Origin: Pseudogymnoascus verrucosus
Taxonomy: Eukaryota
NCBI GenBank assembly: GCA_001662655.1
Contig: KV460261.1
DNA length: 20,000 nucleotides
Direction: 5' to 3' (one strand)
Each line of letters opens with the position of its first letter. Positions within the stretch are counted from its first letter, which is position 1. Made by a program: the position numbers and the translations under genes. Below, piece after piece: positions 2,494 to 20,000 of this stretch. The notes under the pieces are model-generated. The model did no database searches and was not told the DNA's origin. It saw only the letters and a program-made list of their open reading frames with translations.

Positions 2494-4071
2494 GGGAGCC
2501 GAATACCCGTATGGTTATTTTTGTATAAGACACCGGCGACATTGCCGACACTCCAACAGGACCCTCTTCTCGCGAAACCGACATTACCCCGAGTCACAGT
2601 GGACACGCGGCTTGGCCGAGTCGTCTGAATTTTTCTGTTGAGACAGGGGCTAAATCAAAAGTAATAACCAAAAGAAGCCTTTGAGACATCTGGAAGGAAA
2701 AAAAAGGGAGCTATTTGTCTGACAGTACAGTAGTGTAGCGGAGATGCAGGTGATCTCCCCATCGTGCATAGCGGGCCACGAGGGTAATACTGGGCCCATC
2801 TACATGCGCGTGGAAAGAAGCCTTTGGGAAAGCCTGGGCGCGGTTGTGGACGTCGATTGTCCCCTGGCGCCTGGGCAGGCCAATCAGGGGCTCGGCTCGG
2901 GGAACGTGGTGAAGGGGGTGGTGAGATGACAGGCTTGGCGGGTCAACGACGACATTGAAACAAGCAAAACCAAGAGACGGGAGGATATTGTGGCGAGGCT
3001 TGTTTTCTGTCGCTGGGATGGATGGGAGGGGCTCCCAGGCGCGGCAAGTGCGAGCAAGCTTTGTGGCGCGTTTTGTAGATGCTGGTCGGTGATACAAGCG
3101 GGTGTGCTACGTAGATGAGGCCGGGACGGGGCGGGAAGGCTGAGATTACGGATGCGACGGAGAGATAGGAAGGAGGGAAGTGAGGGAAACATGATATTCT
3201 GCAGCTGAATGGCGCGTTGAGACATGTCTGTGGTGAATCCTATGTATGTTTGTGTATACGAAGGTGAAGGGAGACGCGTGCAACGGCAACGACCGAAGCG
3301 CGCACGTGGGCTGGGTGGATGGCAGGAGAGCGATGGTGACACGCGAGACCAGGTGTAGGAGGCGTCGCTCTAGGGGGGGAATTTCCGAGTCCGGGCGGCC
3401 CTGGCTGACCCAAGGATTCCGATATATGACTATTTGATTTGATCCGAGTTGATTTGTGGAGATGATCTCGATCGTGTTGGACAAGACGGGAAGAAGGGGG
3501 ATCAAGCATTGAGGGAAGGGCACGGTGTTTGTTCGTTGTTGTCACGACGGCAGGAGTCGTGTGTGAGGTGTGAGAGGAGATAAATGGATGATGGACTGGT
3601 AGCTTAACAATAGAATCATGGAGTGGAGTACGTATAAGTGGATAAGTGGATGAGTTTAGATAATATTGATACCACCATCTTACGCTCGTGCGACGTCTCT
3701 TCCCGTATCTCCGACGTCTTTCTTCCCTCGTGCAAAGGAGCAACAAGAGCATCTGGAACTGGAACTCACATTATTGAAGCAAGCAAGCGATGTCTGTGTA
3801 CCCCCACCCCAGCACACCTCCATCCCACTCCAGATCTCCATCAAAACTGTGGCTTCCCCGCTAGTCACTAGCGCGTTAGCACAAATCCTCGGCAGACAAG
3901 GAGTGCAATGGTGGGGAGACCCAGTTAGCGACGGGAGCAGCACCACGTTCTTAAATGATTGGCTGAGAATCGTCGACGCAACGACGAGTCTTCAAAGGCA
4001 GGCGCAGCTCAGCATGCTCAGGATGATTCCCGTCTGGTGGGCAGCTGTGGTCAACGGAGGGGGATGGCTGA

Positions 4072-4100
4072 ACTTCCAAGACTTCCAAGACTTCCAAGAC
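4072..4100. repeat. 9-bp tandem repeat (ACTTCCAAG)x3
   Basis: Read directly from the sequence; three perfect copies. Confidence 0.9.
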
Positions 4101-4724
4101 ACCGGACACGGCCGCCACGTCCGAAATCTCTTGGCTCTCGATGGCATATCTGGAGCTGAGCACACAGGGATTGGAAGTCTGACATATCTTCAGGTGGCCG
4201 CTGTATCCGGAGGCGTTCTGAGCGAACAGAGCGAACAGAGCGATGCAAGTTGGAATGGGAATCGATAGGGGAAACAGACGTAGTGGTAGTTGACATCTCG
4301 CCATGTGGTTATATGCAGGAGGAGCCAATGAGGCGTGGTGATGGAGAAACATGTTCTGCTTCCGGCGCTGTGATTTGCTCGCGTGTGCATGGAGAGAAGT
4401 TGGGGGTTTAAGATACGGGGAGAGGCGAAGGGGGAACCGGGGCGGGAAAGGTGGGCGTAAGATGGGCGAAGTGGGCATCTTTAGAGCGATTGAGAGGGTC
4501 CGATTACTGTAATGCTGTGTGTAATGGGTGTGTAGTGGGTGTAATGGGAAAGTATACAGAGGAGGTAGACGGAGTGGGATGAAGTACCACGAAACTCACT
4601 ATATTAGCTATAATACCCAGTAGGTAGGGTATTGATTTGGTGGTGATGTGGTGTTGCTGCGGTGGTGGACGAGGCGGATCGAAGAGCGGGGTACATGGCT
4701 ATATGCGGTGGGTAGTATGGGATC

Positions 4725-4896
4725 GCCAAGTATAGTTTTCGGTTTTCCGACTGGCTCCGACCCTTCGAACAGGCGAAAATCAAAGTGCCCGCGTGCTCAA
4801 ATGCCTCATCGAGCACGTTTGCTGGAGTACCCCTTCCACCGTGCCACCGGCAAATGGGTACTTTGTCTTGGCTGTGTCTTGGCTGTGTCTTGGCTG
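4725..4896. promoter_or_regulatory. Candidate PacC/Rim101 (GCCARG) site cluster plus Pho4/NUC-1-type site upstream of the transporter
   Basis: GCCAAG at 4725-4730. CTTGGC at 4867, 4878 and 4889 inside (TGTCTTGGCTG)x3, 4864-4896. GCACGTTT at 4813-4820. Motif match only. Confidence 0.4.
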
Positions 4897-5154
4897 TGGT
4901 ACAAGCACTTTGGGGCGCAGAGAGACAGTGGTACATGCAACGGTACGCGAGGGGCCGCTAGTAAAATGTTTCGATCGCCGGAGCAAGAATCTCTGCACTC
5001 ACTGTTACCCTCAAACCAGCAGGAGCAACCCACTCTACCACCACTCACTCACTTAGTACCACTAAGGTGTGTTTGGTGACCATTTCTTACTCGTACTACC
5101 CGCCAATATCACCCCAATAACACTCCAAAATCAACTAGCACTACTCCCCACTAC

Positions 5155-5181
5155 ACTCACACTACTCACACTACTCACACT
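5155..5181. repeat. 9-bp tandem repeat (ACTCACACT)x3
   Basis: Read directly; lies in the C/A-rich proximal promoter of the transporter. Confidence 0.9.
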
Positions 5182-5555
5182 ATTTCCATCGTACACGCGC
5201 TCTACCCGTTTCAGTCCACTTCAGTCCACTATAGGCGACCCCGAAAGAAAAAAAAGAAACCCTCCCACGAGGAAATAGTTCCCACACATGTCCACTATGC
5301 CACTAATCCTCTCCATTCCGCCACTCACACGGCGAGAGCGACAGTCGTGCACCTCACCTCCTACCCCCACTCGCTCCAGGGCCCATCCCAGTCCATTCCC
5401 CGTCTCTTCCCATCATCATATAATAATCCCCTCCCCCCATCGCTGTATCACCGTCCTCCTCTCTTCTTTCTCCCTTCCTCTCCATCAACACGCCCCCGGC
5501 CCATCTCTCTTCTCGCCGCACTTCTCAGCGCAGCGCAGAGCTAGACGTTCTCAAC

Positions 5556-7666
5556 ATGTCGAACGACGACGGCCTCTACCACCCCCGCGTCCATGACCCG
5601 GCCGCGGGCACCATCCCGGTCCCCCATGGCCCGGATACTGGCACCGACCATGCCACCCTCCCATACGACCGCAATGCCGCCAACGAGAAGGCCATCTTCG
5701 ACTACCTCATCAAGCCGGATGACAGCTACAACTCCGACGGTGTGTACTGGGCCGATCTGCCGTGGATGAAGCGCGCCGCGTTCGTCAGCGCCGTCGATGC
5801 CGCCGAGGCCAGGAAGGAGCTCGGTGCCATTGGCACCATGATGAAGGCCGATCCGTTGAGCCCCATTGGCTGGTACTTCCGCAACGCGGTCCTGCCAGGT
5901 GCCGGTCTGGGTCTCGAGGGGTATGTTGCGATTTTTTCCATTGTGACTACGCGTGGTGCTGACGGATACTTAGTTACGTGCTCTTCTCCATTGGTAACTT
6001 GACCCCGCTGTTCCAGGCCGCCTGGGGTTCGTGCTGGAAGAAGTACCAGGTCTGCAGCGAGAACTGGATCGCCGCTGTCACGTACATGGAGATTCTCGGT
6101 ATCATCGTTGGCCAGGTTCTTGTCGGTGTGTTGGGTGATTGGTGAGTGCTTGCTTCGCTTCGATTGTTGTACTGGGACAATCGCTAACACACAACCAGGT
6201 TCGGTCGCAGATGGGGTCTCATCCAGGATGCGCTGATCATGTTTGGCGGTCTGCTCATGCTCACGGCCTCGTGGGGTCTCGATCTCCAGGGCTGGGTCAT
6301 CTGCTACGCCATCTCGCTCTTCTTCTACGGTATCGGTGTTGGTGGTGAGTACCCGATGACGGCCACCGCCGCCATGGAGAACGCCACCGGAGCCGGCAGG
6401 GTGTCGACCAAGGAGGATCGTCTCCACCGTGGTCGCAAGGTCACCATGGCCTTCCTCATGCAGGGCTGGGGTCAATTCTGGAACCAGGTCGTCCTCATCA
6501 TCCTCATGCTCATCTTCAACCACAGCGGCAACCCGCCGTACTCGGTCGCCATGGCCCAGTGGACCTTCCGCGTCTCCTTCGCCCTCCCCGCCCTCGGCAC
6601 GTTGTGGCTCGTCTACTACCGTACCTACAAGATGCCGCTTGCCAGCAAGCAGCTCAACATGGCCAAGAAGAAGATCAACGTGACCGGCTACGACACCAAG
6701 TCGCTCGGCCTGACCTTCACCTACTTCGGTGGCCGCCTGCTCGCCACCACCGGAACCTGGTTCTGCAACGACGTCTTCTTCTACGGTAACAAGCTGTTCC
6801 AATCGCAGTTCATCAGCGTCCTCTCCCCCCACGGAGCCACCATCATGACCGGCTGGACATGGAACTTGGTCAACGTCGTCGTCTCGCTCGCCGGATACTA
6901 CTGCGCCTGCTTCCTCATCGACAACAAGCTGTTCGGCCGCAAGAACATGATGCAGCTGGGCTTCCTCATGGACTTCATCCTGTTTGTCGTCCCCGCCTTC
7001 CACTACAAGTACTACACCTCCATCCAGGGTGTCACCGCCTTCCAGGCCATGTACTTCTTGTCGTCCTTCTTCAACCAGTTCGGTCCCAACTCGGTCACCT
7101 TCCTCATCGCCGCCGAGGTCTTCCCCACGCCCGTCCGCGCGACCGCCCACGGTCTCTCCGCCGCCGTCGGCAAGCTCGGTGCCCTCCTCGCCTCCGTCCT
7201 GTACAACTACATCGACACCCAGATGAAGTTCTACGTCGTGCCATGGTTTGGTCTGGCCGGCATGCTCCTCACCCTCCTCTTCCTCCCAGACACCACCGGC
7301 CTCGACCTCAAGGAGCAGGAGCGCCGCTGGAAGTACATCCGCAGCGGACGCGAGTCCGAGTACCACGGTGTCGCCGTCCACCCCAAGCATCTCTCGCTCT
7401 GGGAGCGTCTCCGTGGCGCCGGCAAGTACTACGACCCGGAGCTCGACTACGCCTCCAAGATTGAGGACATGCGCGAGGACTGGAGCGAGAAGCAGGAGGC
7501 TCGTCGCCAGGCTGAGGTGAACGGCGGCGTCTTCGATACCGAGGACGATTACAGCCAGCACATCCACGACCACTTCACCGCCACCACCCAGCCGGATAAG
7601 ATCGTGGCCTCGTCGGCGGCGTCGGATGAGGATGCGCTGAGGGCTGGCGAGAAGCGCGCATTGTAG
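5556..7666 (+). CDS. MFS inorganic phosphate:H+ symporter-like transporter (PHS/PHO84-PHT1 family), ~666 aa; exons 5556-5920, 5974-6141, 6199-7666
   Basis: Intron 5921-5973 (GTATGT...GCTGAC...TAG) and intron 6142-6198 (GTGAGT...GCTAAC...CAG) join the ORFs in frame (2001 nt). MFS motif GDWFGRR; GIGVGGEYPMTAT (cf. PHT1 signature GGDYPLSAT); FLMQGWG; QFGPNSVTFLIAAEVFPTPVRATAHGLSAAVGKLG. Strong C-ending codon bias. Substrate is inferred. Confidence 0.9.
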
Positions 7667-7829
7667 ATAGATAGCCACGGGCGCATTTTGTTTTGTATAC
7701 CTTTTGGATTAATGGCGCGCGCGCTTTTACTTAGCGCGCGAGCGAGCGTGAAAGAGCGCTGTTAGAGTTTTGCATAGGAGTAGTAAGTAGGAGATTAAAT
7801 ACCATATACTTCACGTTGCCTTTTGTTTA

Positions 7830-9112
7830 CTATTTATAATATAACTATGTTTATGCTATTGTCTCGTCTAGGTTCATGCTATTACTACCTAGAACCCTAC
7901 TTTTAGTTACGTTCCCTATTACCTCCCTAATATTACGTTCCCTACTATTATATTCTCTCTACTTATTATAATCTGTACCCTTACTATTACTACTATTATT
8001 ATCCCTACTCTACTAGTTTTTATCCCTACTACTATTATAAGAAGCATTTTTATTATTTTTAGTTTCTTTCTATTAGAATGCTAGAGTAGCTAAAAATAGA
8101 AGAATACTAGGTTAGGTAAAAATAGTATAATTAAATATAAAGACATAGGTCTAGGGTTATATAGGAGTTTAGGGAACTAGATTAGAAGGTAGGATAATAA
8201 GGTTATATAGTATAATAATAGGTCTACCTTAATATAGTAACTATTAACTAAAGGCCTTAGTTCTATACCTCTAGTCCCTTTTATATTAAGGCTCCTAGTT
8301 TTACTAAGCTCTACTATATCCTATATATAAAGGTGTCCTTATATAACACCCCTTTATAATTCCTCTTCTAGGGAATTACCCTTAATTCTAAGCATAAAGA
8401 TTAAAGCTAGTTATACCTCTTATTTAGGCTTATTTAGTCTATTTACTTATATATAAGGTAAGGTTATTATTATTATTAGGCTTATGCCTATTAGGGGGTC
8501 TTATAACCCCCCTTATTATATAGTTACTATAGTTACCCCTAATTATTATAAGTATTATACTTAACTTCTACTTCTATACTTCTTTCCTTCTCTTTTCTAT
8601 ATATCCTTATAACCTTACTTATTTTAGTAAATGAAAATTATACCCTATAGTACTTACTACCTTCTACTAAAAGCAATAACGTGTAAATGCCTATGTACTT
8701 ACTCTATATCCTTTATAAAAAGAATAGAATACCTATAGGGCCCCTACTATAATATACATTATAATTAGCTTGCTACTAAATGCACTATAATAGTAAGCTA
8801 TAATTACTAACTTATAGTAGTCTTATAAGCTATAGTAAGTGCCTACTATAGGCTATAAGTACTAGAATATAGTGTGTATAGTCCTAGTTATAGTAATTAT
8901 AGTACTAATTATAGGCTGTATATGCTAGAATATAGCGTACATAGTACTAATTACAGCGTGTTATAGTACTAATTATAGGCTATACATGCTATACTATAGT
9001 GTTTACTATAAAACAAAACAGGTAGAGAGGGTAGTAGATAAGCTAGGCAAAGAAGTAGATTAGCTTTAGGTACTCTAACTTATATAATTATTACCTAATA
9101 TTAAACTAGTAT
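7830..9112. mobile_element. Heavily RIP-mutated AT-rich repeat relic, family unidentifiable
   Basis: Abrupt drop in GC, extreme TpA excess with depletion of CpA/TpG, no ORF of 60 aa or more in any frame, sharp edges. Confidence 0.75.
8847..9010. repeat. Degenerate ~63-64-bp tandem repeat (about 2.5 copies) with ~21-bp sub-period
   Basis: Units begin TATAGGCT at 8847, 8910 and 8974. ATAGTACTAATTA recurs at 8899, 8941 and 8963. Copies differ mostly by transitions. Confidence 0.8.
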
Positions 9113-9300
9113 ATGTCCCTAAACGGTACAGATACAGCCAATCGGGGGTCGAGCTTACTAACGCACGTGATATTAGGCTAGGCCTTGTTAAGACTAGTCA
9201 TTAGAAACCGCTTTCTTCGTTTAGGCGACTCGAATATGTATAAGGCAAGGGCAAGGGTAGAAACGTATACTTTTCTATCTCTTCATTTCTCTAATCTGTA

Positions 9301-10359
9301 ATGGAGCGTAAGGAAGCATCAGTATCTCCTGAGCTAGAGGCTCATACAACGTAAGTCGTTTCGAACCCAAAGCTAAATTATCCTAACCTTGGAAGTCCTT
9401 ACGAGTCTCCAATCATCGTCCTATCCGTAGGCCCAAAGGATGACAACCCAGTCCTATTCCACGTTCATAAGGAGAAACTCACCCATATACCATTCTTCAA
9501 AGCGGCTTTTCGAGAAAATGCTTTTGCTGAAGGCCACCAAGGCGAGGTCAATTTCGAGGACGGAGACCCTATCTTGTTCCGTCGAGTCGTTGAGTTTATA
9601 TATGAAGGCGACTACTTTCCGCGTCAGAAACTGCTACCCGAAGCATCCCTTAGCTTTGAGGTACCACTAAGAGTTAAAGGCATAGCATTGGATAGTAAAG
9701 AGGAAGATTACGTCCCATCTCTCGCCGTTGAAATGGCGTCGGGAACATACCTTGCTACGGCCGAAACCCACCAGCTGTTCATGATGGTTTCAAAACTTCT
9801 GTGTGTTGCAGACCGTTACCTCATTGAAGATTTGGTAGAAATGAGCTTTCGAAAGTTGAAGAGTTTCCCTATTGGCACCAAAGAGCTAATTGCCCTTGCC
9901 GAACATATTGTTAGGAGCATCCCTGAAACCAGGTTCGATATTCACAAGTTTCTCGCGGACCAGGTCTACCTCCATCTTCCTCGGCTTAGAAACAGCCCAG
10001 AGTTTAGATCACTCCTAGAAAGCGAGACGTCTAACCTAGGCCAGGGGCTTATTGGATTAACTATGAACACCTTGTTATCTGGTCAAGGACGCTACTTTGA
10101 AGAAGTTCTAAAGACTAATACCAAAGTAGTAATATGTATTACGGACGTGACGGTGGATGAGTGTATAGAGAAATATGGTAGTGACGATAATTTTCCAGTC
10201 AAATTTGGGGCAGCTGTGGCCGGCCAGGTACTTATAAGTGATGGAACAGTGGACTCGAGAAATATGATGTGTGCTGAATATGTTCTTGATGGGCCGACAC
10301 TAGCCTTTCCCGCGTCTTCTTTTAAGTTGTTAGCTGAAGCTAGTTTTACAGCCAGGTAG
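9301..10359 (+). CDS. BTB/POZ-domain protein, ~337 aa; exons 9301-9350, 9396-10359
   Basis: ATG at 9301. Intron 9351-9395 (GTAAGT...CCTAAC...AAG) joins in frame to PYESPIIVLSVGPKDDNPVLFHVHKEKLTHIPFFKAAFRENAFAEGHQGEVNFEDGDPILFRRVVEFIYEGDY...LCVADRYLIEDL, a typical fungal BTB pattern. CCAAT at 9138 and TATAA at 9239 upstream. Confidence 0.85.
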
Positions 10360-10385
10360 GGCATGTTAGTTTTCACAATAAACTT

Positions 10386-12378
10386 ATGTTTGGCGCCGGC
10401 ACGCAGTTCCGTGGGTTGCAGAAGCCGGCGTTAGAGGCAATCATGAAGCACGACAGCCCCATATTGATCGTGATGGGGACGGGGGTGGGGAAGTCGATGT
10501 TGTTCCAGATTCCCGCAAAGAGCGTGTCATCCAGGACAACAATTGTCTTCACGCCGTTAGTGTCGTTGCAGGACCATATGGTTAAGCGGTGTCAGCAGGT
10601 TGGGATTTCGTGTACGAAGTGGGATAGTCAGCGCATAGGGGAAATGCAAGCACAGATCGTCATCGTCACACCCGAGTCAGCGGTCAGCAAGGCGTTCAGC
10701 ACGTTTTTGAATGATATGCAGGGTTGTCAGGAGTTGGTCCGCATCGTGTTTGACGAGTGTCACACCGTCATGGACAGCACGCCCGATTTCCGTCTCTAGA
10801 TGCAGCAGTTAGGGGCATTATCCACGCGGGAGGTGCAGATGGTGTTTTTGACGGCAACACGTTGCCGAAGCATACTAAGCCCGAGTTCATGCGAATTATG
10901 AAGATTAAGCTGGAAGAGGTGCAGACGTTTCAGGGGCCCACGACGCGGCGTAACATTGCGTATTCCGTTCATAAGTATGCCGAGGGGAGCGACGAGACGG
11001 AGGCCATTTGCCAGTTGGTAGGTGAGAAGTTAGAGCAGTATACGGCGCCCGCCAAGATCATTGTGTACGGGGGCACGATCGAGCGGACATAGGAGTTGAG
11101 CAAGGCATTAGGTTGTCACTAGTATTACCGCGAGGTAGGCGACCGAGACGAGAAGGGTGCGATTATGGAACGGTAGCAGCGTGGCGATGGGCGGTTGATT
11201 GCAGCGACGAACGCGTTTGGGTTGGGAATTGATGCCCCTGATGTCTAGGTGGTGGTCCATGCTGGGGACATTTACTAGATGCGGAGTTATAGTCAGGAGA
11301 GCGGCCGTGGTGGAAGGGATGGTAATCGGAGTGAAGCCATCGTCGTGATGCCAGCCGGCAAGCAGGAGGAGTTGCAAATAGCACGGGCCAAAGCGCGGAC
11401 ACAACCGTGGAAGATCCAGAGTCGCGTGTTGCGGCCGTGGGAGACCAAGCAGGTGGAGCGGAGAAGATAGAGAGGTTTTTGAGTGGCAGTAAGTGTAGAC
11501 GGATATATTTGGATAGCGAGATGGACAACTGATAGGATCGGAAAAGGTGCGAGGTAGGGGAGGAGCAGTGCGATGTGTGCGAGAAGGATGATGCCATAGT
11601 TGAAGACGGAGAGGCACGACGGGCGGCATACGTTGAAGAACAGAGAGCGATTTAAGAGCAGGCAGCACAAGCCGAGCGTGAGAGACAGGGCCGGTGGGTG
11701 GACAGCGGAATTGACGTTCCTAGCAGCATGTATATTCCAGCGCCGAGCAGTGACGTTTAGTTCCCGGGAGTGTCATTGTTGCCAGTCCCCAGCCATTCAC
11801 GGGTTAAAATGCAACGTCTAGTGAGGAGGAGGGCCAGTCCATACACCGTTCACGTTGTAGTTCGGTCAGTTTCGATAAAGGGTTTACGGCCGACCAAGAT
11901 CCGGTTGGCGAGAGCCGTACGTTCGAGGCCTAGAAGCAACAGCGAAGCCAGCAACGATGGCGAATCGAGGCCGACAGCCAGCGGGAAGGGCATGAGGTGT
12001 GGAATCTAGAGACCCGGTTGGATTCGTGGGTAAGCAATTGCCCGTTATGTTACGTCCGACAGTGACAAGGTTAGGAGGTTGATGTCCGGCATACATTAGA
12101 GAATTGCCCTGATGAATCACGGACGAAGGTGATTATAGAGATTGAGGCATTAAAGACGATCCGATTTGAGCCATATGCTAGTTGTACGTTTTGCACGGTG
12201 GCGCAGAAGGTGTGTACGCGGTGGGCAGAGACGCGAGAGGGCAGCAATCGTTTCTGGAAGGTCGAAGGAGGAGAATGTCAGTACGATGGGATTTTGCGCG
12301 CAGCCGTGGCAGCCATGAGTATTGCAGCGCCGGTAGAGGTGTTCAAGGAAGGGTTGTATGGGAGATGAAGGCGCTGGG
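10386..12378 (+). pseudogene. RecQ-like SF2 helicase (telomere-linked helicase type) pseudogene 1, 5'-truncated
   Basis: Motif 0 FRGLQ, Walker A GTGVGKS, TPLVSL, VTPE, DECH, LTAT (frameshift ~10860), ATNAFGLGID, QESGRGGRDG, Zn-binding CRR..LD..MD..C..CDVC, then a Cys-rich tail. In-frame TAG stops at 10797, 11090, 11120, 11174, 11246 and 11276, with further stops and frameshifts downstream. Confidence 0.92.
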
Positions 12379-13273
12379 CGGGAATTGACGTACCCGGGAT
12401 CACACATGTCATTCACCTCGAAGCGCCACATTCCATCATTGACTATGCGCAGGAAGCTGGGTGTGCTAGAAGGGGTGGAGAGCGTGTTGCAGCTGTGGTG
12501 GTAATTGAGGATAAAGACTGGCCAGAGGAGGACGCGGCAAAGGATAGCTGCCTTGAGGTGAAACGGCGCGAGGTGAACAGTTACATCTGGACGAAGGGGT
12601 GTCGGCGTAGGATTCTTGGGTGTTGCCTAGACAGCGACTTGCGGGACTGCAAGGGAATTGAAGCAGTGATGTGCAACAACTGCAGGCGAGAGGAATTGGT
12701 TTGGAAGAGTGAGTTGTCTACGTAAGGGATGATTATGTCTTAGGCGTACGGGCGAAGGGTGGCGCGAGGGTTGGAGCAGATGGAGTCGGCGCTAGAGGAA
12801 GTAAGGGAGCTTGGGCAGTGGGGTTGCCGGATGTGCTAGATGTTTAAAGGGGCGAAGGAGGCAAGAGGACATAAGTGGATGGAGTGCACTGAGATTAAGG
12901 AGTGCCTGAGTTTCCGAGGGTGCATGGAATTCTAGGGGAGGATTAATTATCGACGGGACAGACAGGCGCAGTTTCTAAGCTGCTTCTACTGTTATGTATC
13001 GTAGGAGCTATGCCAGGATGGGTACAAGGAGGGAGGGAAAGGGTGTTAGTAAAAGCACGTTATGATACTAACGGCGATAGCGGCAACGACGGAGGAGGGG
13101 TTATGGGGCCGGTGCAAGAGCTTGCGGGGAGAGAGGTGCAGGAGGAGACGGAGTACAGGCGGTGGCTGGAGCAAAAGCATCCTAAGTTGGTGTGCGGGCA
13201 GGAGATGACGAATGCAATGGCTGTTTTCGAGCTGGTGTTGAGATAGAGGGTTGAGAAGGGGGCTGGGAGGTAA
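12371..13273 (+). pseudogene. Second, divergent RecQ-like helicase pseudogene fragment (motif V to C-terminus)
   Basis: Frame 3 from 12381 reads GIDVPGITHVIHLEAPHSIIDYAQEAGCARRGG, then CRRRILGCCLD..C..CNNC, CRMC..H....C and SCFYCYVS*ELC. Several TAG/TAA stops and one frameshift near 13110. Probable end TAA at 13271-13273. Confidence 0.88.
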
Positions 13274-13424
13274 GGGGCGACTGGAGGGGAATGTAGGGGG
13301 AACGACGGTGCTAGTAGCCAAAATTGCTTAGTCCAAAAGGTGACTGACTACGAGCGAGGAAATACAGGTTACGTCGTGGATTACGCAAAATGTCAAGTGG
13401 TATAGGTGTCGCATTACGGGTTAG

Positions 13425-13509
13425 TGCATGAGGTTCCCGATGAGTTATCATATGGGTCACTGCATGAGGTGCCGTACGAGGTTTAGTGAGGGGTTGTTGG
13501 ACGAGGTTT
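13425..13509. repeat. Cluster of short direct repeats with an AYGAGGT core
   Basis: TGCATGAGGT at 13425 and 13461; ACGAGGTTT at 13476 and 13501. Confidence 0.75.
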
Positions 13510-13778
13510 TCTATAGGGCCTATCGTTTAGGGGAACCAGTAGAGTTTTGACGTTAGTTTGCAGTGCATACGGTGCCATGGACGGCACCGCGCAAGGCATC
13601 GCGCATCAGCAGTGTATATAATGGGGAGGAATTCTGGTTTGGTGGATTTGTTAGAGTGAAAGATGGATATTCTCATAACAGTGGAATTGTGCAGTTCTGA
13701 TTAAAACACGTCACACTTAAACATCAAACTTTACTCCAACTTTACCCTCTCCTTAATACCAACCATAAGGCCTCAACT

Positions 13779-14315
13779 ATGAATGCCATAACTACGCAAG
13801 GTACTGGGGTCGAAGCAGCAGAATGGGTTGGGCTTGGAGTACGAGGGTTAGGGTTGGAAGCTCGATGGGTTATTTAGAAAGGGGTGTTTTTATATTACCC
13901 AGTTTTCCTCTCTACAGCCGACATAATGGATCACGGAAACGAAACTCATCAAATGCTAGGGTGCCATCCGTCTGAGTTTATAAAGTTTGTAATAGAGGAA
14001 CGCCCTAAGATCCTCTGGAGACATTTGGTGAAGGAGGACGGCTATATTGATGACGACGACAACTATAATAAGGAGTTCGCAGAAGGTGTTTTGCTGCGGC
14101 GGGAACGTTTCATGGGAGATGATGAGAGTGGAAAGCAGATTGTGAAGGAAGCACGGGAGATCTACTATGGGGAGAATACGTTCAGCGTGGAGTCTCACTG
14201 CCTTCGTGTGTTTCTTATACGCGATACTCGGGCGGATGGAAAGCCCATGGCGGTAGAGCCATTTGTGAGCGGCCTCCTCCTGTGTGCGGACAGTCGCCAT
14301 ATAAAGCACGGATAA
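13779..14315 (+). CDS. Small hypothetical protein, possibly a truncated gene; exons possibly 13779-13800 and 13918-14315 (alternative ATG at 13926)
   Basis: Protein-like composition with an EAREIYYGENTF motif that resembles the EAxxxxYxxNxF seen in many uncharacterised fungal proteins. Phase-compatible donor (G|GTACTG, 13801) and acceptor (pyrimidine tract plus CAG ending 13917), but no clear branch site. TATATAA near 13615. Confidence 0.5.
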
Positions 14316-14492
14316 ACGGTTGAAGTAAGTGGCTTGATATATAAGTCTGGTAGCGAGCACTACTTCTATTTAAATAGCCACAACGAAGAACGAAGGCAAC
14401 CGTGAGACAAATATTCGGGTAAGATGTCTAGGGTGATTCCACGGTGATATCGCTGAGGTTTTGAGGCCTGCCGCATCGGTTATATCGGAAGC

Positions 14493-15641
14493 CTATGATA
14501 GCAAGGGAGTGTCTCCGAAAATAAAGGAGGAGGGGAAACTTGTAAATTTTGTCAGTATTTTCTTGCCAAGAAAACCTGCCGATTCCCACTTACCTGTCAG
14601 GATATCTATCGCCCTGCAGCTCTGTCTTCCTTACGGCATTGCTGATTTCCTCCGCCTCAGCGGCCGACAATCTCACCTCGAGCGCACCCACATTCTCTTC
14701 CAGATACTTGATACTGCGTGTACCCGGAATTGGAATGATGTCCTGGCCACGAGCCATCAACCACGCCATCGCCAATTGAGCGGCGCTGTAACCCTTCCCC
14801 GCCGCCATTGATTTGAGCTTATCAACCAGTTCCAATATACGCGGAAAGTTATCCTCTGAATAGCGGGGCATATTGACCAGGAACGGTTGTTCTGAAGCGA
14901 GGTCCTGACGAGATTTATAACGACCGGCTAGTAATCCACGGCCCATGGGACTGTAGGCGACGACCGCGACACCTAACTCACGGCAGGTTTGGAGCAGACC
15001 GATTTTCGGATCCTCGATATCCATGGCAAAGGCGCTATATTCCACTTGCACCGCAGAGATCGGATGCACCGCGTGTGCTCGGCTGAGGGTTGCCGCGGAG
15101 ACTTCGCTGAGGCCGAGATAGCGGATTTTACCCTCGCTGAAGTATGTTAGTTAAAATGCATGAAACTTGTGCGCGATTTGACACGGAAAAATTGTAAGTC
15201 TACTTACTTCTTCAGCTCCACCATAGCCTCGATGGTTTTCTCGATGGGAGTCTTTCCATCCACGCGATGACAGTAATAGAGATCGATTGTCTCAACCCCA
15301 AGCCTATCAAGGCTCTTTTGACACGCTAATTTGACATACTCGGGACTAGAGTCGATGACTTGAGGATGGGCTAAACCAAGGCCAAATTTCGTCGCTAGGA
15401 AAACGTCGTTGAATTTCAACGGGTTCTTTTGAATCCACTTGCCAATTACATCCTCGCTATCAGCGTAGACGTCAGCTGTATCCCAGAAATGCTCTCCGAT
15501 CTCGTGAGCATGGTCCAATAACGCTAGGCGTTGCTCATCGCTGCCGGCGGGGCCGTATATGCCACCAATGCCCATGAGCCCTAGGCCAAGACCTGTGACT
15601 TGAGGGCCATGTCTACCAAGAGTTCTCGTAGGAAGAGCCAT
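14493..15641 (-). CDS. Aldo-keto reductase (AKR13/YakC-like), ~340 aa; exons 15641-15208, 15136-14594, 14538-14493
   Basis: GLGLMG; DTADVY, ATKFG and YYCHR supply the D/Y/K/H tetrad; [35 protein letters not shown]. Introns 15207-15137 (GTAAGT...CTAAC...CAG) and 14593-14539 (GTAAGT...CTGAC...AAG). Final exon [14 protein letters not shown]. Total 1023 nt in frame. Confidence 0.95.
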
Positions 15642-16117
15642 TATGTTTTAGAAGCAGTCTGAAGATTAGGGACTGATAAAATAGTGAGGGAAAGAGAGAA
15701 TCGTTAGAAGGAGGGAACTGTTCAAGCTTATATATATAATGGCCTGGGAGCAAAGTGGGCATTACTCGTACCCTGCAACGGCTGTATATCTCTAAGAAGA
15801 GATATACATTCTTAATAATGGGTCAAAGTTTGGTTTAGATCTCACAAAGTACAAAGTCCAGGCCATAAGTCCGAAGTTATCGCCACCTATGGTGGAGATT
15901 ACTCAATTAGGAAAGGCGCCTCGAGAGACTCGTGGCCAATCAAAGACTAGAAGTTCCGAGGCCATCTATTTGTAATCTATCTCGGCCCCTCTCGATTTAG
16001 CTAACCAAAGCGGACTAAATGTGCTCATTTACCGCAGACTCAGATCTCGAATCTTTTCATGTCTTTGCCTAAAGTAACATGATTCATGCTGTGAAGCTCG
16101 TAACGCCTTGAGCGGAT
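15642..16117. promoter_or_regulatory. Shared divergent promoter of the AKR and Zn2Cys6 genes
   Basis: 476 bp between the two start codons. (TA)n TATA element near 15729-15739. Perfect 11-bp inverted repeat at 15783-15808. AGTCCG at 15868 (+) and 16011-16016 (-). Confidence 0.7.
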
Positions 16118-18035
16118 ATGTCGATTCCGAGATCCGGCGGCTGGTCTAGCTCGACACCTCACGAAGCCAATGTTCAGCAGGTGAAACATGCGAAACATGT
16201 GAAGTCTGGCTGTAGTACGTGCAGGTAAGCTTTGCATTGCTCACAACAGCTATAGAAAAAATGATATTAAGTGTCGATACAGAGTTAGACGCGTTAAATG
16301 TGACGAAGAGAAACCTAATTGCCGAAGGTGTCTGAAATCTGGCCGCGCCTGCGAAGGCTATGGAATCTCTTATGGAGGCAAACTCCGATCTACGCAAAAG
16401 CCTCAGCCTAAAAGCCTACCCATTAGAAACATATCGATGGATCTCCACCTGAATGGCAGCCCAGAGCCATTTCCCGGAGTGTCTCGAGAAGAGCGGGCAC
16501 TTTTAGACTACTTTCAAAAGGCTCCGAACCTCAAAATGGGCGGCATCTTCAGATGTGAATTTTGGGACTCTTTAGTTCTTCAGGCTAGCGAGACGGCACC
16601 TGGAGTCAGGTATGCAGTTATTGCGCTTGCTTCGGTCCATCGATCTCGCTTCACTACTGGAGATGCTGGAAATACCTTCAGTCTAAAATATGATGACTCC
16701 TTTGCGCTGAAGCAATACAACAAGGCAATCAAAGACGTGATTTCGCATACGTCAGTTCGGGATCCCCAATCAATTCACATTGCTGCTATTTCCTGTATGT
16801 TGTTTATTTGTTTAGAAATGTTGCGAGGGGAGCTTCAGAGTATGAACACTCATTTCCAGCATGGAATCAATCTGATCCGCCATATTCAAGGCAGAAACCG
16901 ACGTCATCAACAGAACCGTGGCATTTTAATGATGCAGGATCCTCAGCCACTAGATGAGCATCTCATCCATGTATTCACCCGACTCCGTGTGCAATTTCTA
17001 ATGCTTGGTTATGATCCATTGGACAGTGGTCCATTGTTCGCTCCAGATGTGCGGCACACTCGACCTCTTACCATCCCAAAGGATTTCTCAACTGTAAGTG
17101 CGGTACGCCATTCCCTCGATACTATACTCAACTCGGTCGTCGACCTGATCGTCCGCATTGAAAAAGAGTACTTGACCACCAACATACATTCTCCACCGCC
17201 ACCGATCCTCGTGGGTCAGCAAAAAAATCTGCAAGTCACCGTCTCCGATTGGATTGCTGCATTCGAGACATCTATTCCGTCTCTTCTTTTACATGCCTCA
17301 TTATTTGAGAGACTCGGTCTTTGTATTCTCCGAATTTATAGTGATGTTGTCACTGTGATGCTGTCGTCTTGTTTCTCCATGAAAGAAACAGTCTATGACG
17401 CCTTCACCTCAGAATTTGAGTCTATCATTCGGTATTCAGAGGAGCTCTTTGCCCTTGGTGCCAATGCAACTCCCGGAACCAAAATCAGAGGAGAAGGTGG
17501 TCATAAACCCGCCGATTCCAAAAAGGGATCCTGTTTTAGCACCGACATGTTTTGTTACCCACCACTCTACTTCACTGCCCTCAAGTGTCGAGTTCCGCAT
17601 CTTCGACGACAAGCTGTAACATTGTTGCAACGGTGCCCACAGATTAAAGGGCTGTGGACAGGATCATTGTTGGCACGCGCTGCAACACGAATAATCGATA
17701 TAGAGGAAAGAGGATTCTCAGCCGCGTTATCCACTTCTTCTCTCTGCTGCAAAGATTCTAGGACTTCACAAATAACGAGCCCAGCTAGAGTTGTCCAGGA
17801 TAATATGTTATCGTACAAAACTAATGGTGAAGCTTGCTCCTCTGCATCTTCTCCAACACCATTCATCCTTCCTGAGTTCTCCCGAATTCATCACGTCCGT
17901 TACCTTTTTACAAAGGAGTATTTTACGTCCGGCTTCGACTCGAATGAGGGCTCACTTAGAACATTGATTTGCTATCGTTTCCAACACGAGCTGGGCAGGT
18001 CCGGTAAATGGGATATTAAGACCTGTTATATTTAA
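16118..18035 (+). CDS. Zn(II)2Cys6 transcription factor with C-terminal fungal TF domain (Fungal_trans_2-like), ~619 aa; exons 16118-16224, 16283-18035
   Basis: Intron 16225-16282 (GTAAGC...CAG) restores [34 protein letters not shown], in frame with the 532-aa ORF. FWDSLVLQAS...VRYAVIALASVH...ALKQYNKAI...LFICLEMLRG and PLYFTALKCR..LRRQA motifs. Confidence 0.93.
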
Positions 18036-18360
18036 ATCGAACATGTCTATCGTTATGTCCTGAAAAGTGTACATACAAGCTCTATATTGAGGTTAAGCAA
18101 TGTGATACTACAGACAGATCTGTAAACAGTTCCATGCTGTTTCATATTTACTAATTGTCATATGAGGCACCCTATTTCAACTTCCCACAGACTCAGAAAG
18201 AGGAAACAATAGGTGACTTATGCTGCTCAAAAAGCAACTGAGCCTGTAAAGTTTCGCCGTAAAAATACTCGACATCTATCCTAGGCTTGACACCACTCTG
18301 TATTCGCCGAACGAGGTCCCGTCAGGCTTGAAGGGTGGCTTGCACCAGAGCAATTGGCTT

Positions 18361-18522
18361 TATAGTTACTAAGATATTATGTTTTAGCCCCTACTTTAGC
18401 CCCATTTTTTACTTAGATCTTAGTACCTTAATAACTACAAGACTAACTCCTTTAGAACTTAAATAGAGTATTTCAAGTACTTATAAAAGACTGATTACGT
18501 ATTTCTATAATTTATTATTAAA
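18361..18522. mobile_element. Short RIP-mutated AT-rich relic, possibly a DNA transposon end
   Basis: Sharp TpA-rich block; TTTAGCCCC repeated at 18383 and 18395. Confidence 0.5.
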
Positions 18523-18884
18523 GGGTTGTTGAGATAAAATTCCCGATTTTTGGTGCAAAATGCAGTGCGCCGCGTGCTTATGGACCACGTTAAATAAAAA
18601 TAGAATATTGGCTCTTAATAACAAATCACGAGCCATTAAAGTATACGAGGTTGTTGGTTTTAGATACTGTGACCTTTCTCTATATTACTGTGCTGCGTTC
18701 GTAATTCGTACTGGATCGTTTGTTCTCGCCTTCTCATTACTCGATGGTGTGAAAGTGGGGAAAATAGTCTAAGCGTGGACAAATGATGGGTCATCACTTC
18801 CTTGCTGTAGTACTCCCTTGAGTAGATTGGAATGATTCCCGATATTTTCGATATTTTAGAATAATAACTAGTACAATATTTACA

Positions 18885-19167: not shown

Positions 19168-19578
19168 GCCGCGCAGCACGGCCAGCGAGAGACCATACGG
19201 CTGCTACTAAAAAATGGTGCCTCAATATCAGAGCATGAGAGGTATCACCAAACGGCGTTGCATTGGGCATCCGTGGGTGGGCACGCAGACGCAGCAGAGG
19301 AGCTTCTCTCGCAAGGCGCAGATATATCGCCTGTGAGTAGGAAGGGGCAGATATTCCTGCACTTGGCAGTGCAGAGCACGTCCGTCTAGACGGTGAGAGT
19401 ACTCTTAGAGCAAGTGGCCATGATATCTGCTCATGACCTCGAAGGAAGCTCGGCGTTGCATTTAGCGGCTGATGGCGGAAACCTGGAGATTATCGACCTC
19501 CTGATTGACAACGTCCCGGGGAGGGCTGAGGGTGCAGTACGCACGCGCTGGGGCACGACGCAGCCTAGGGTGGAATAG
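19168..19578 (+). pseudogene. Ankyrin-repeat fragment (about 4 repeats) with an internal stop
   Basis: Frame 1 reads AAQHGQRETIRLLLKNGA / TALHWASVGGHADAAEELLSQGADI / GQIFLHLAVQSTSV*TVRVLLE / GSSALHLAADGGNLEIIDLLIDN. TAG at 19387-19389, no own ATG, similarity lost after ~19512. Confidence 0.85.
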
Positions 19579-20000
19579 GAGTCGCGCCGCAAGATCGAGG
19601 AACAACTCTATCTGGATCTCAGTTATACGTGTGACTATGTCCCATGGTCACTTCTTAAAGATCTCACAGCCTCGGCATTGTGGTGCGCACCAACATGGTA
19701 TGCCTCGAGTTTCTGTACGTGAGCAACCGAGCAGGCTCAATTTCGCTCTATTTCATATAAGTCTCTTTGACTGCGTCCCATTCAGAACCTTCTGCGGTAC
19801 TCGCCATTTACTTATGCTTTCCATACCACCCAGCATGTATATTATAATGTAAAACACTGTTCATATCTGCCTTCTTAGCCTCCTAAGACATTTGTCGCTC
19901 GTTTGCTGACTCTAGAGAGCGAAAAGCCTATTGGTAATAGTATAAAACGTATAATGGAGGTAGAATGGGTTTAGCGCGATAATAAGCAAGGACCTTCTCT

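What the first reader, a model, noticed from the sequence alone, without database searches (positions are those of the whole stretch)
9103..13541. Candidate helicase-encoding mobile element: DR+IR ends bracketing BTB cargo and two RecQ-like genes
Seen: CCCTAAACGGTA (9117-9128) and TATCGTTTAGGG (13521-13532) form an 11/12 inverted repeat. Just outside lie AAACTAGTA (9103-9111) and GAACCAGTA (13533-13541). Both mismatches are canonical RIP changes (TpG>TpA, CpA>TpA). Spacing is asymmetric: 5 nt on the left, 0 on the right. The left end coincides with the edge of the RIP block, and the right end follows a short-repeat cluster ~250 bp after the helicase stop. Known: TLH-type RecQ genes are multicopy in fungal subtelomeric/accessory DNA but are not normally given element boundaries. 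AcademH transposons encode a RecQ-like helicase and make ~9-bp TSDs; Starships have short DRs with asymmetric IRs. Inference: a deleted copy of a mobile family of DUF3505/RecQ genes that can carry cargo. Caveats: the motifs are short, no transposase or recombinase is visible, and the left flank is RIPped while the right is not, which fits a simple TSD poorly.
Basis: partly seen in the sequence, partly recalled or inferred. Interest (0 to 1): 0.8.

Follow-up and report, generated by a model that had tools for sequence, protein, structure and literature searches.

The report
Fossil telomere-linked helicase block
This stretch is a dead, patched-together remnant of the helicase genes that normally sit at fungal chromosome ends, with one intact ordinary gene trapped inside; its apparent 'ends' are telomere-like motifs typical of such blocks, so it looks more like a relic than a working jumping gene.

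Summary
The 11/12 inverted repeat alone is chance-level, but the repeat plus its flanking 7/9 direct repeat is rare (17 of 3000 shuffles).

The interior is a mosaic, not one element copy. [quoted passage not shown]

The right arm is real. It is an inverted copy of the CCTAACC-type boundary motif that opens the 5' module of full-length relatives (chance 2 of 200 shuffles). A copy in another genome stops matching at 13537. However, it is one of several such motifs in the tail. TLH-type sequence appears to continue to a perfect two-unit telomere repeat at 13844-13855, and synteny with a relative resumes only at 13910.

The left arm is only suggestive. No 5' module follows it, no repeated copy covers it, and a relative's contig runs through it.

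Full-length relatives do carry the missing recombinase: a tyrosine-recombinase fold with conserved catalytic residues, placed before the helicase. Neither fragment here retains it.

Verdict: an internalised fossil TLH block. AcademH and Starship membership are not met.

The parts
7750..9116 (.). AT-rich, heavily RIP-mutated block of unknown origin. Part of it (about 8164-8322) is repeated elsewhere in the source assembly.
   Evidence: GC is 0.28-0.29, TpA/ApT is 1.8 and (CpA+TpG)/(ApC+GpT) is 0.17-0.3. Extra contigs and loose ends appear at 8164-8322. There is no TLH protein signal.
9103..9111 (+). It may be a RIP-worn tandem copy of the next motif.
   Evidence: Read. It matches GAACCAGTA at 7/9. 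The tandem-copy idea is my reading only.
9117..9128 (+). Left arm CCCTAAACGGTA, a C-strand telomere-like, HAR-C-like motif. It may be a remnant of a TLH 5' boundary, or chance.
   Evidence: It is the only other match with at most 1 mismatch to the right 12-mer in the window, with a chance mean of 0.09 per window. It matches 9/11 of Magnaporthe HAR-C, but such matches are at chance level window-wide. No palindrome or direct-repeat module follows.
9301..10359 (+). Intact BTB/POZ gene: exon 1 9301-9350, intron 9351-9395 (GTAAGT...CTAAC...AG), exon 2 9396-10359. It encodes about 337 aa.
   Evidence: Translation. Pfam BTB E 1.3e-5. Full-length homologues of 319-339 aa, including exon 1, are found in other Leotiomycetes.
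10386..12379 (+). Fragment A: TLH-type RecQ pseudogene of subfamily A, running from helicase motif I to the Cys-rich C-region. It has TAG/TGA stops and frameshifts and lacks the zinc-finger and recombinase parts.
   Evidence: DEAD and Helicase_C domains. It matches P0035 residues 847-1477 and P0026 residues 240-876. X2 copies continue upstream of 10386 with TLH sequence (loose end). A paralogue at 86-90% identity exists in the source.
12371..12379 (+). A/B junction with 9-nt microhomology (GCGCTGGGC).
   Evidence: Family-A proteins read ...MKA(L/M)G... and family-B proteins read ...AALGTGIDVPG... across this point.
12380..13273 (+). Fragment B: the last ~290 codons of a TLH gene of subfamily B, running from helicase motif V to the natural stop at 13271-13273. 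A premature TAG lies at 13244-13246.
   Evidence: 72% identity to P0004 residues 1133-1382. DNA homology to loci L001, L003, L004, L007 and L012 covers only 12376-13236.
13274..13537 (+). 3' tail of the B unit, carrying inverted boundary-type (HAR-C-like) motifs at 13363-13373, 13415-13425 and 13517-13532.
   Evidence: X4 contig 27 matches 13053-13211 and 13416-13537, then runs on for 622 nt unlike the window.
13517..13532 (-). Right arm. On the minus strand it reads CCCTAAACGATAGGCC, an inverted copy of the motif that opens the 5' module of full-length relatives.
   Evidence: The pattern built from relatives only, CCTAACCGNNAGGCC with at most 1 mismatch, hits the window once, here. Only 2 of 200 shuffles give any hit.
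13533..13541 (+). Its first 5 nt are shared with the X4 copy.
13632..13642 (-). A further inverted HAR-C-like motif, outside the proposed element.
13844..13855 (+). Perfect two-unit telomere repeat AGGGTTAGGGTT in G-strand orientation downstream of the helicase. It is probably a fossil telomere seed and the true right edge of the block.
   Evidence: It is the only 12/12 match in the window. About 0.007 per strand is expected by my arithmetic. X2 synteny resumes at 13910. Locus L012 shows the same arrangement.

Best explanation
The interval is an internalised, decayed piece of a telomere-linked-helicase (TLH) subtelomeric block. It is not one copy of a cut-and-paste transposon.

The block lies between a sugar-transporter gene and an aldo-keto-reductase gene. 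From left to right it contains:
1. a RIP-destroyed AT-rich stretch;
2. one or two C-strand telomere-like motifs (9103-9128);
3. an intact BTB gene;
4. a 5'- and 3'-truncated TLH pseudogene of subfamily A;
5. the 3' end of a TLH gene of subfamily B, fused to fragment A by illegitimate recombination at a 9-nt microhomology;
6. that gene's 3' tail, with several G-strand telomere-like motifs;
7. a two-unit telomere repeat at 13844-13855.

One lies upstream in C-strand orientation and one downstream in G-strand orientation. This is the layout of TLH regions, where the gene reads towards the telomere.

What is shown: the anatomy, the truncations, the family assignment, the nature of the right motif, and the recombinase fold in relatives.

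What is inferred:
- The block was once, or was copied from, a chromosome end and became interstitial through end capture, fusion or ectopic recombination.
- Intact TLH proteins (zinc fingers, tyrosine recombinase, RecQ helicase) act on the palindrome and CCTAACC module to spread or repair such units.

Nothing TLH-derived here can still act. Both fragments lack the recombinase and the 5' module. Only the BTB gene looks functional.
For: Mosaic structure.

Fragment A is cut at 10386. X2 copies continue upstream with sequence translating to TVDI.QALEE, which is family-A protein sequence.

The A/B junction has a microhomology.

The architecture OrsD + DEAD + Helicase_C matches Fusarium subtelomeric helicases of 1454 aa (passages read) and the published TLH layout of C2H2 motifs, TLH domain and RecQ (passages read).

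The right arm equals the relatives' 5' boundary motif, inverted.

In Magnaporthe, TLH ends diverge exactly at the first C's of the HAR-C unit CCTAACC... upstream of TLH. A palindrome-bearing HAR-D lies next to it, and TTAGGG-bearing HARs are present (passages and Table 1 of PMC1635262).

Three further hits of the HAR-C 11-mer (at most 2 mismatches) lie on the minus strand within 13363-13642. About 0.03 is expected from the shuffle mean of 4.77 per window (the arithmetic is mine).

The only perfect 12-nt telomere match lies at 13844-13855, on the gene's strand. Locus L012 likewise has (TTAGGG)2-3 on the gene's strand, 0.96 and 2.2 kb past the gene.

X2 synteny stops at 7933 and resumes at 13910. 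X3 synteny stops at 7811.

The BTB gene is an ordinary conserved gene. In a related species' gene model (P0062) it is again flanked by TLH debris, with the same BTB/fragment-A junction.
Against: The inverted repeat plus direct repeat is rare by chance (17 of 3000 shuffles).

That fits a discrete unit ending there.

Both arms share the variant CCTAAAC, whereas the four relatives' modules have C/A-CTAACC. This is what two ends of one lineage would show.

The telomere repeat is only 12 nt long. That TTAGGG is this fungus's telomere unit is assumed from other Pezizomycotina.

HAR-C-like matches are at chance level window-wide (6 found against 4.77 expected), so the left motif is not significant on its own as HAR-C.

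The source genome was not available. Copy ends rest on one lay of contigs, of which 252 pieces and 149 loose ends were not shown.
Confidence: 0.55

Rival explanations
1. The stretch from 9117 to 13532-13537 is a non-autonomous, internally rearranged derivative of a TLH-type element. It keeps both family termini, a short inverted CCTAA(A/C)CG.. motif, and carries a captured BTB gene. It was moved in trans by a zinc-finger/tyrosine-recombinase/RecQ protein encoded by full-length copies.
For: The right terminus motif is family-specific, and homology with the X4 copy ends at 13537. The left arm is the only other near-match of the right 12-mer in the window. The inverted repeat plus direct repeat is rare (17 of 3000 shuffles). 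The family encodes a recombinase fold with conserved catalytic residues. Many relatives sit on contigs of about 5-6 kb, as a repeated unit of that size would.
Against: No copy of 9117-10385 other than one X3 contig was laid, and that contig runs on to 9008. The 5' module (palindrome plus direct repeats) that follows the motif in all four relatives' modules is absent here. The interior joins two subfamilies. The X4 copy shares 5 nt of the supposed target duplication. Boundary-type motifs and a telomere repeat continue beyond 13541. X2 synteny resumes at 13910, not 13541. No contig joins across the interval.
Confidence: 0.2
2. Pure debris. Unrelated fragments were joined by ectopic or illegitimate recombination in a RIP-affected spot. 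Both arms, the direct repeat and the 12-nt telomere match are coincidences with no boundary meaning.
For: The inverted repeat alone is chance-level (140 of 1000 shuffles). TTAGGG and CCCTAA hexamers occur 10 times in the window, about the random expectation. Local alignment of the tail against the relatives' modules finds nothing beyond the 15-mer (p 0.04 to 0.58).
Against: The relatives-only pattern hits the window once, exactly where X4 homology ends. Three more HAR-C-like hits cluster on one strand within 280 nt. A perfect 12/12 telomere match lies next to the point where synteny resumes.
Confidence: 0.2
3. An AcademH-type (DDE transposase plus helicase) or Starship-type (DUF3435 captain) element with 9-bp target-site duplications.
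Against: There is no DDE or DUF3435 hit in P0004, P0011 or P0026 at E up to 10. Residues 200-835 fold as a tyrosine recombinase, not RNase H-like. No recombinase or transposase ORF is present in the window.
Confidence: 0.03

Closest known systems
TLH (telomere-linked RecQ helicase) regions of filamentous fungi, e.g. Magnaporthe oryzae TLH region I with its HAR-CDEF boundary, and Fusarium oxysporum TLH subtelomeres
   Same: The protein architecture is the same: two N-terminal C2H2/OrsD fingers, a 'TLH domain' and a RecQ helicase. Copies are multicopy and often mutated. A CCTAACC-type motif and a palindrome lie a few hundred nt upstream of the gene and mark a sharp boundary. Telomere-like motifs and telomere repeats lie on the 3' side.
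   Different: Here the block is interstitial, between ordinary genes. It is made of pieces of two subfamilies and encloses an intact BTB gene. The recombinase nature of the 'TLH domain' is not stated in the papers I could search.
Yeast Y' elements (recalled, not read here beyond passages quoted)
   Same: These are 5-6 kb helicase-encoding subtelomeric units that can be flanked by short internal telomere tracts and spread by recombination.
   Different: The helicase lineage is different. No recombinase domain is known in Y'. No homology was tested.
Cryptons (tyrosine-recombinase DNA transposons of fungi)
   Same: Both involve a tyrosine-recombinase fold and catalytic residues in a eukaryotic repeated element. 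Short repeats, not long terminal inverted repeats, sit at the ends.
   Different: Cryptons as I recall them carry no RecQ helicase and are not telomere-linked. Sequence kinship was not tested. No Pfam recombinase family is hit.
Starships
   Same: They are driven by a tyrosine recombinase and carry cargo, with short direct repeats and imperfect inverted repeats at the ends.
   Different: The Starship captain is a DUF3435 protein at the 5' end, and elements are tens to hundreds of kb (recalled). No DUF3435 hit was found, and the block is about 5 kb.
AcademH transposons
   Same: They carry an SF2/RecQ-like helicase inside a repeated element.
   Different: AcademH has a DDE transposase and 9-10 bp target duplications. 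This is recalled: the defining paper was not held. Here the domain before the helicase is a tyrosine-recombinase fold.

Membership tests
TLH (telomere-linked RecQ helicase) family | RecQ-type helicase core | tested here: met
   The fragments carry DEAD and Helicase_C domains. A profile of full-length relatives hits RECQ5, BLM and RecQ structures at E 4e-34 to 2e-31.
TLH (telomere-linked RecQ helicase) family | N-terminal paired C2H2 / OrsD(DUF3505) fingers and a 'TLH domain' upstream of the helicase | tested here: met
   Met in the full-length relatives P0004 and P0011: OrsD E 1e-11, with the conserved middle region. Both parts are missing from the window's two fragments.
TLH (telomere-linked RecQ helicase) family | Position next to telomere repeats | tested here: inconclusive
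   Only a 12-nt telomere repeat is present, at 13844-13855. Ordinary genes lie on both sides. The position of the window on its chromosome is unknown.
TLH (telomere-linked RecQ helicase) family | Boundary repeats with a CCTAACC motif and a palindrome upstream of the gene (HAR-C/D of Magnaporthe) | tested here: inconclusive
   Present in four relatives' modules (L002 with L001, L003, L004, L008). In the window there is only a 12-nt CCCTAAACGGTA at 9117, without a palindrome, plus inverted copies in the tail.
Tyrosine recombinases (Xer/Cre/integrase fold) | Two-domain fold with the catalytic R..K..(H)xxR..H/W..Y residues | tested here: met
   Tested on full-length relatives, not the window. The AlphaFold model of P0004 residues 200-835 has pLDDT 78.9. 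VIA-align gives XerA Z 11.5 (170 aa, 3.2 A), XerH Z 10.4 (276 aa) and Cre Z 10.0 (265 aa), and rows 1-28 all share this fold. Foldseek ranks the same proteins at the top but only at E 0.14. K628, R718 and Y769 are invariant, and R594, E597 and H761 are at least 90% conserved, in 51 members at 23-39% identity. Activity was not tested.
AcademH | DDE (RNase H-like) transposase in the element's protein | tested here: not met
   No such Pfam hit at E up to 10. The pre-helicase region folds as a tyrosine recombinase.
AcademH | 9-10 bp target-site duplications flanking terminal inverted repeats | tested here: inconclusive
   There is a 7/9 direct repeat with asymmetric spacing. Five of its right-hand bases are shared with the X4 copy. 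No second copy or empty site was seen.
Starship | DUF3435 'captain' tyrosine recombinase as the first gene | tested here: not met
   No DUF3435 hit in relatives. No recombinase ORF in the window.
Crypton | Crypton-clade tyrosine recombinase (sequence kinship) | not tested
   No Crypton sequences were at hand. Only the shared fold was shown.

The most novel reading that the evidence does not exclude
TLH 'genes' are self-mobilising elements. A zinc-finger/tyrosine-recombinase/RecQ protein acts on short telomere-like inverted termini (CCTAAC-CG.. at the 5' end and its complement at the 3' end). The 9117-13537 stretch would then be a non-autonomous derivative that kept both termini and picked up a host BTB gene. 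That would show that such elements can carry cargo into chromosome-internal sites.
Probability: 0.2. Interest if true: 0.75.

Novelty: new variant of a known kind. Interest (0 to 1): 0.45.

Why it matters
TLH genes have been known at fungal chromosome ends for over twenty years without an agreed function. Their sharp CCTAACC boundary in Magnaporthe has had no mechanism.

This window adds three things:
- The same boundary motif also occurs, inverted, in the 3' tail of a TLH unit.
- The tail ends in a telomere remnant.
- TLH blocks can end up inside chromosomes, with a working host gene enclosed.

Together with the recombinase fold in intact relatives, this makes a concrete idea testable: that TLH proteins cut and rejoin DNA at these motifs.

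For genome annotation, such 'helicase pseudogenes with inverted repeats' should be read as subtelomere relics and not as new transposon families.

Tried and rejected
1. Whole-genome search of the source. No genome is held, so copy ends rest on a single lay of contigs.

2. Empty site or presence/absence polymorphism. No contig of X2, X3 or X4 joins across 9103-13541 (table 5). Lack of cover is not evidence of absence.

3. The idea that CCCTAA and TTAGGG single units are significant in themselves. There are 10 hexamers in 20 kb, which equals chance.

4. DNA homology between the 3' tail and the metagenome relatives. BLASTN matches only the coding part, 12376-13236. The tails of L003, L004, L007 and L012 are not alignable. 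L004 has GGTTAGG about 316 nt after its stop, which is weak (about 0.06 expected, my arithmetic).

5. Long terminal inverted repeats in L003 and L004. None stood out among 234 and 194 pairs respectively.

6. The 5' module in the window. A profile built from four relatives' modules finds nothing in the window at E up to 10. CCARATACC is at chance level. Local alignments of the tail or the left end against the modules give p 0.04 to 0.83.

7. Whether the RIP block 7.7-9.1 kb is a dead TLH 5' half. tblastn finds nothing at E below 1. A RIP-tolerant Smith-Waterman scored 245, within the null range 228-264 from 20 shuffles. That test has no power.

8. Sequence-level recombinase families. There is no Pfam hit at E up to 10. 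The ESM Atlas gave only unnamed fungal clusters.

9. tRNA or other RNA genes as integration targets. None were found.

10. Similarity between the BTB intron and the L002 5' UTR (16/18 nt, E 1.1). I judged this to be branch-point consensus plus chance.

11. Earlier-findings look-ups by place and by sequence returned nothing.

12. They were redone.

13. The AcademH paper could not be read.


Full report
**Observation.**
- CCCTAAACGGTA lies at 9117-9128 and TATCGTTTAGGG at 13521-13532, an 11/12 inverted repeat.
- AAACTAGTA lies at 9103-9111 and GAACCAGTA at 13533-13541, a 7/9 direct repeat.
- Spacing is 5 nt on the left and 0 nt on the right.
- The left pair sits at the edge of a strongly RIP-mutated block. 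GC is 0.28, TpA/ApT 1.8 and the CpA+TpG index 0.17-0.3 up to about 9100.
- The claim that all mismatches are canonical RIP changes does not hold. There are three transitions and only one is in CpA context.

**Chance.** Alone, an 11/12 inverted repeat between zones of this size is ordinary. It occurs in 140 of 1000 shuffles and in 21 of 102 real zone pairs. Together with a flanking 7/9 direct repeat it is rare. It occurs in 17 of 3000 shuffles, and among 306 overlapping real zone pairs only in the 6 that contain the observed pair.

**Anatomy.** The interior is a mosaic.
- *BTB gene.* An intact BTB gene runs from ATG 9301. It has a 45-nt intron with GTAAGT, CTAAC and AG signals, and a stop at 10357-10359. 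Its product of about 337 aa has full-length homologues of 319-339 aa at 63-73% identity in other Leotiomycetes, including the short first exon. It is an ordinary host-type gene.
- *Fragment A.* Twenty-six bases after the BTB stop, a RecQ-type helicase pseudogene begins abruptly at helicase motif I (10386). It corresponds to residues 847-1477 of a 1547-aa relative (P0035) and residues 240-876 of P0026. In run X2, copies of this family continue upstream of 10386 with sequence translating to TVDI.QALEE, the family's own upstream sequence. The window's copy is therefore 5'-truncated there.
- *Junction.* Fragment A ends near 12379. There the reading switches, across the 9-nt overlap GCGCTGGGC, to a different subfamily.
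- *Fragment B.* This is the last ~290 codons of a 1433-aa protein type, running from helicase motif V to the natural stop at 13271-13273. It is 72% identical to P0004.
- *Damage.* Both fragments carry many TAG/TGA stops at Gln or Trp codons. That is RIP-like damage, although the bulk RIP indices are only mildly shifted.

**Family.** Full-length relatives of fragment B have OrsD/DUF3505 zinc fingers at residues 5-102 and a RecQ core at residues 860-1250. The RecQ core matches RECQ5, BLM and RecQ structures at E 4e-34 to 2e-31. This is the architecture reported for Fusarium subtelomeric helicases (1454 aa, DEAD + Helicase_C + OrsD; passages of preprint 10.1101/2023.02.05.527183). It is also the published TLH layout of C2H2 motifs, a 'TLH domain' of about 250 residues and RecQ motifs (passages of preprint 10.1101/2024.02.27.582403).

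**The missing recombinase.**
- I modelled residues 200-835 of P0004 with a 20-row alignment (pLDDT 78.9).
- An exhaustive structural comparison put tyrosine recombinases and type IB topoisomerases in all of rows 1-28. The best were archaeal Xer at Z 11.5 (170 residues, 3.2 A), XerH at Z 10.4 (276 residues, both domains) and Cre at Z 10.0 (265 residues).
- Rows 1-28 also include Ndc10 and two phage regulators, which I recall as having the same fold.
- Foldseek ranked XerH, Cre and XerA first, but only at E 0.14-0.24.
- The catalytic pattern is present and conserved. In 51 members at 23-39% identity to P0004, K628, R718 and Y769 are invariant, and R594, E597 and H761 are at least 90% conserved.
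- The family is large: 3176 representatives at E up to 0.001.
- No Pfam recombinase family is hit. The assignment therefore rests on fold and motifs, and activity is untested.
- I found no paper linking TLH genes to tyrosine recombinases. Searches found none, and 'recombinase' occurs 0 times in the 2024 TLH preprint.
- Earlier agents of this scan noted the same fold in other genomes. That is not independent support.
- Neither fragment in the window retains this domain.

**The right end.**
- In run X4, one contig matches 13053-13211 and 13416-13537 at about 90% identity. It has 98 other letters in place of the 204 between, and it then continues for 622 nt unlike the window.
- In four independent metagenome relatives (L002 with L001, L003, L004, L008), a conserved module lies 300-450 nt upstream of the start codon. 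It consists of a motif CCTAACCG..AGGCC, a palindrome GGTAT-N8-ATACC and two direct CCA(G/A)ATACC units.
- A pattern built from the relatives only (CCTAACCGNNAGGCC, at most 1 mismatch) hits the window once, on the minus strand at 13517-13531. Only 2 of 200 shuffles give any hit.
- I noticed the match in an alignment before fixing the length of the pattern. Even so, its coincidence with the X4 end makes chance very unlikely.

**What this motif is.** In Magnaporthe oryzae all TLH ends share sequence up to the HAR-CDEF repeat block, which ends 181 bp before the TLH start. [quoted passage not shown] HAR-D carries a 23-bp palindrome, and HAR-F and HAR-G carry TTAGGG (passages and Table 1 of PMC1635262). 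The relatives' module is the same kind of boundary.

**The right arm is not unique.**
- The HAR-C 11-mer with at most 2 mismatches hits the window 6 times against 4.77 expected. Three of those hits lie on the minus strand at 13363, 13415 and 13632, where about 0.03 would be expected (my arithmetic). The last of them lies outside the proposed element.
- The only perfect 12-nt telomere-repeat match in the window is AGGGTTAGGGTT at 13844-13855, on the helicase's strand.
- Synteny with X2 (98.5% identity) resumes only at 13910.
- Locus L012 shows the same layout: (TTAGGG)2-3 on the gene's strand at 0.96 and 2.2 kb beyond the gene.
- The TLH-type tail thus seems to run on to a fossil telomere seed.

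**The left end.** Given that the right motif is real, a second copy of its 12-mer with at most 1 mismatch elsewhere in the window has a chance mean of 0.09. Both arms share the variant CCTAAAC. That is suggestive. Several observations count against it.
- None of the module that follows the motif in relatives is present.
- In X1, X2 and X4, which hold many helicase copies, nothing was laid on 8672-10005.
- The one X3 contig that covers the BTB gene runs through the motif to 9008. If that contig is the orthologous locus, this says little either way.
- A gene model of a related species (P0062) joins a TLH-type recombinase C-terminal part (26% identical to subfamily A) to this BTB gene and then to fragment A, read out of frame. 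There the BTB gene also lies inside TLH debris, with more TLH sequence to its left.
- I could not show that the window's RIP block is the equivalent of that sequence.

**Flanks.** X2 synteny ends at 7933 and X3 synteny ends at 7811 (99.2% identity over 1-7811). No contig joins the two flanks across the island. The source's own extra copy covers only 10409-12337 at 86-90% identity. The window has no tRNA or Rfam hit, and no transposase or recombinase ORF.

**Verdict.** The best reading (0.55) is an internalised, decayed TLH subtelomeric block, patched from two subfamilies and enclosing a live BTB gene. Its 'inverted repeat' is a pair of telomere-like boundary motifs of the TLH system. The updated transposon reading, with both termini real and BTB as cargo, keeps about 0.2. 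Pure coincidence also keeps about 0.2. AcademH or Starship membership is contradicted by the features tested. What could not be seen may change the balance: the source genome, 252 laid pieces and 149 loose ends not listed, and the AcademH paper.

Noticed in passing
window 1-7933 and 13910-18161: The two flanks of the island have different nearest relatives. The left flank is 99.2% identical to run X3 and about 92-96% identical to X2. The right flank is 98.5% identical to X2, and nothing from X3 was laid on it. The island may mark a rearrangement or introgression breakpoint.
   Followed up: no
window 18427-18536 and 19347-19660: Many contigs of all four runs start, stop or branch here, with loose ends at 18536 and 19514. 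This suggests a multicopy repeat of unknown type near the window's right end.
   Followed up: no
window 2500-5200: A non-coding or low-complexity stretch with strong GC skew and an 11-nt tandem motif at 4861-4898. X2 has several indels and replacements here.
   Followed up: no
window 14590-15641 (-) and 16437-18035 (+): An aldo-keto reductase gene in two ORF pieces, probably split by an intron, and a fungal-specific transcription factor. Together with a DRMBL/SNM1-type gene (1-2493) and a sugar transporter (about 6239-7666), they show that the island lies among ordinary genes.
   Followed up: partly
L002 330-460, L003 88-195, L004 394-525, L008 38-180: A conserved module lies upstream of full-length TLH-type genes: CCTAACCG..AGGCC, a near-perfect palindrome GGTAT-N8-ATACC, and two direct CCA(G/A)ATACC units whose sequence equals the palindrome arms. 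It looks like a recombinase core site plus accessory sites.
   Followed up: partly
L012 8122-8139 and 9345-9362: Two short interstitial telomere tracts, (TTAGGG)2-3, lie on the gene's strand downstream of a RIP-affected TLH gene in a metagenome contig.
   Followed up: no
proteins P0042, P0050, P0062 (related species' gene models): Pieces of these helicase genes are fused by gene prediction to unrelated coding sequence: in P0042 a long unrelated N-terminal part, in P0062 the BTB gene. TLH debris thus pollutes annotations in this genus.
   Followed up: partly
window 9403-9470 versus 10440-10510: The BTB N-terminus (YESPIIVLSVG..VLFHV) resembles the helicase motif I region (DSPILIVMGTG..MLFQI). 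BLASTP aligned the two. This is probably chance.
   Followed up: no
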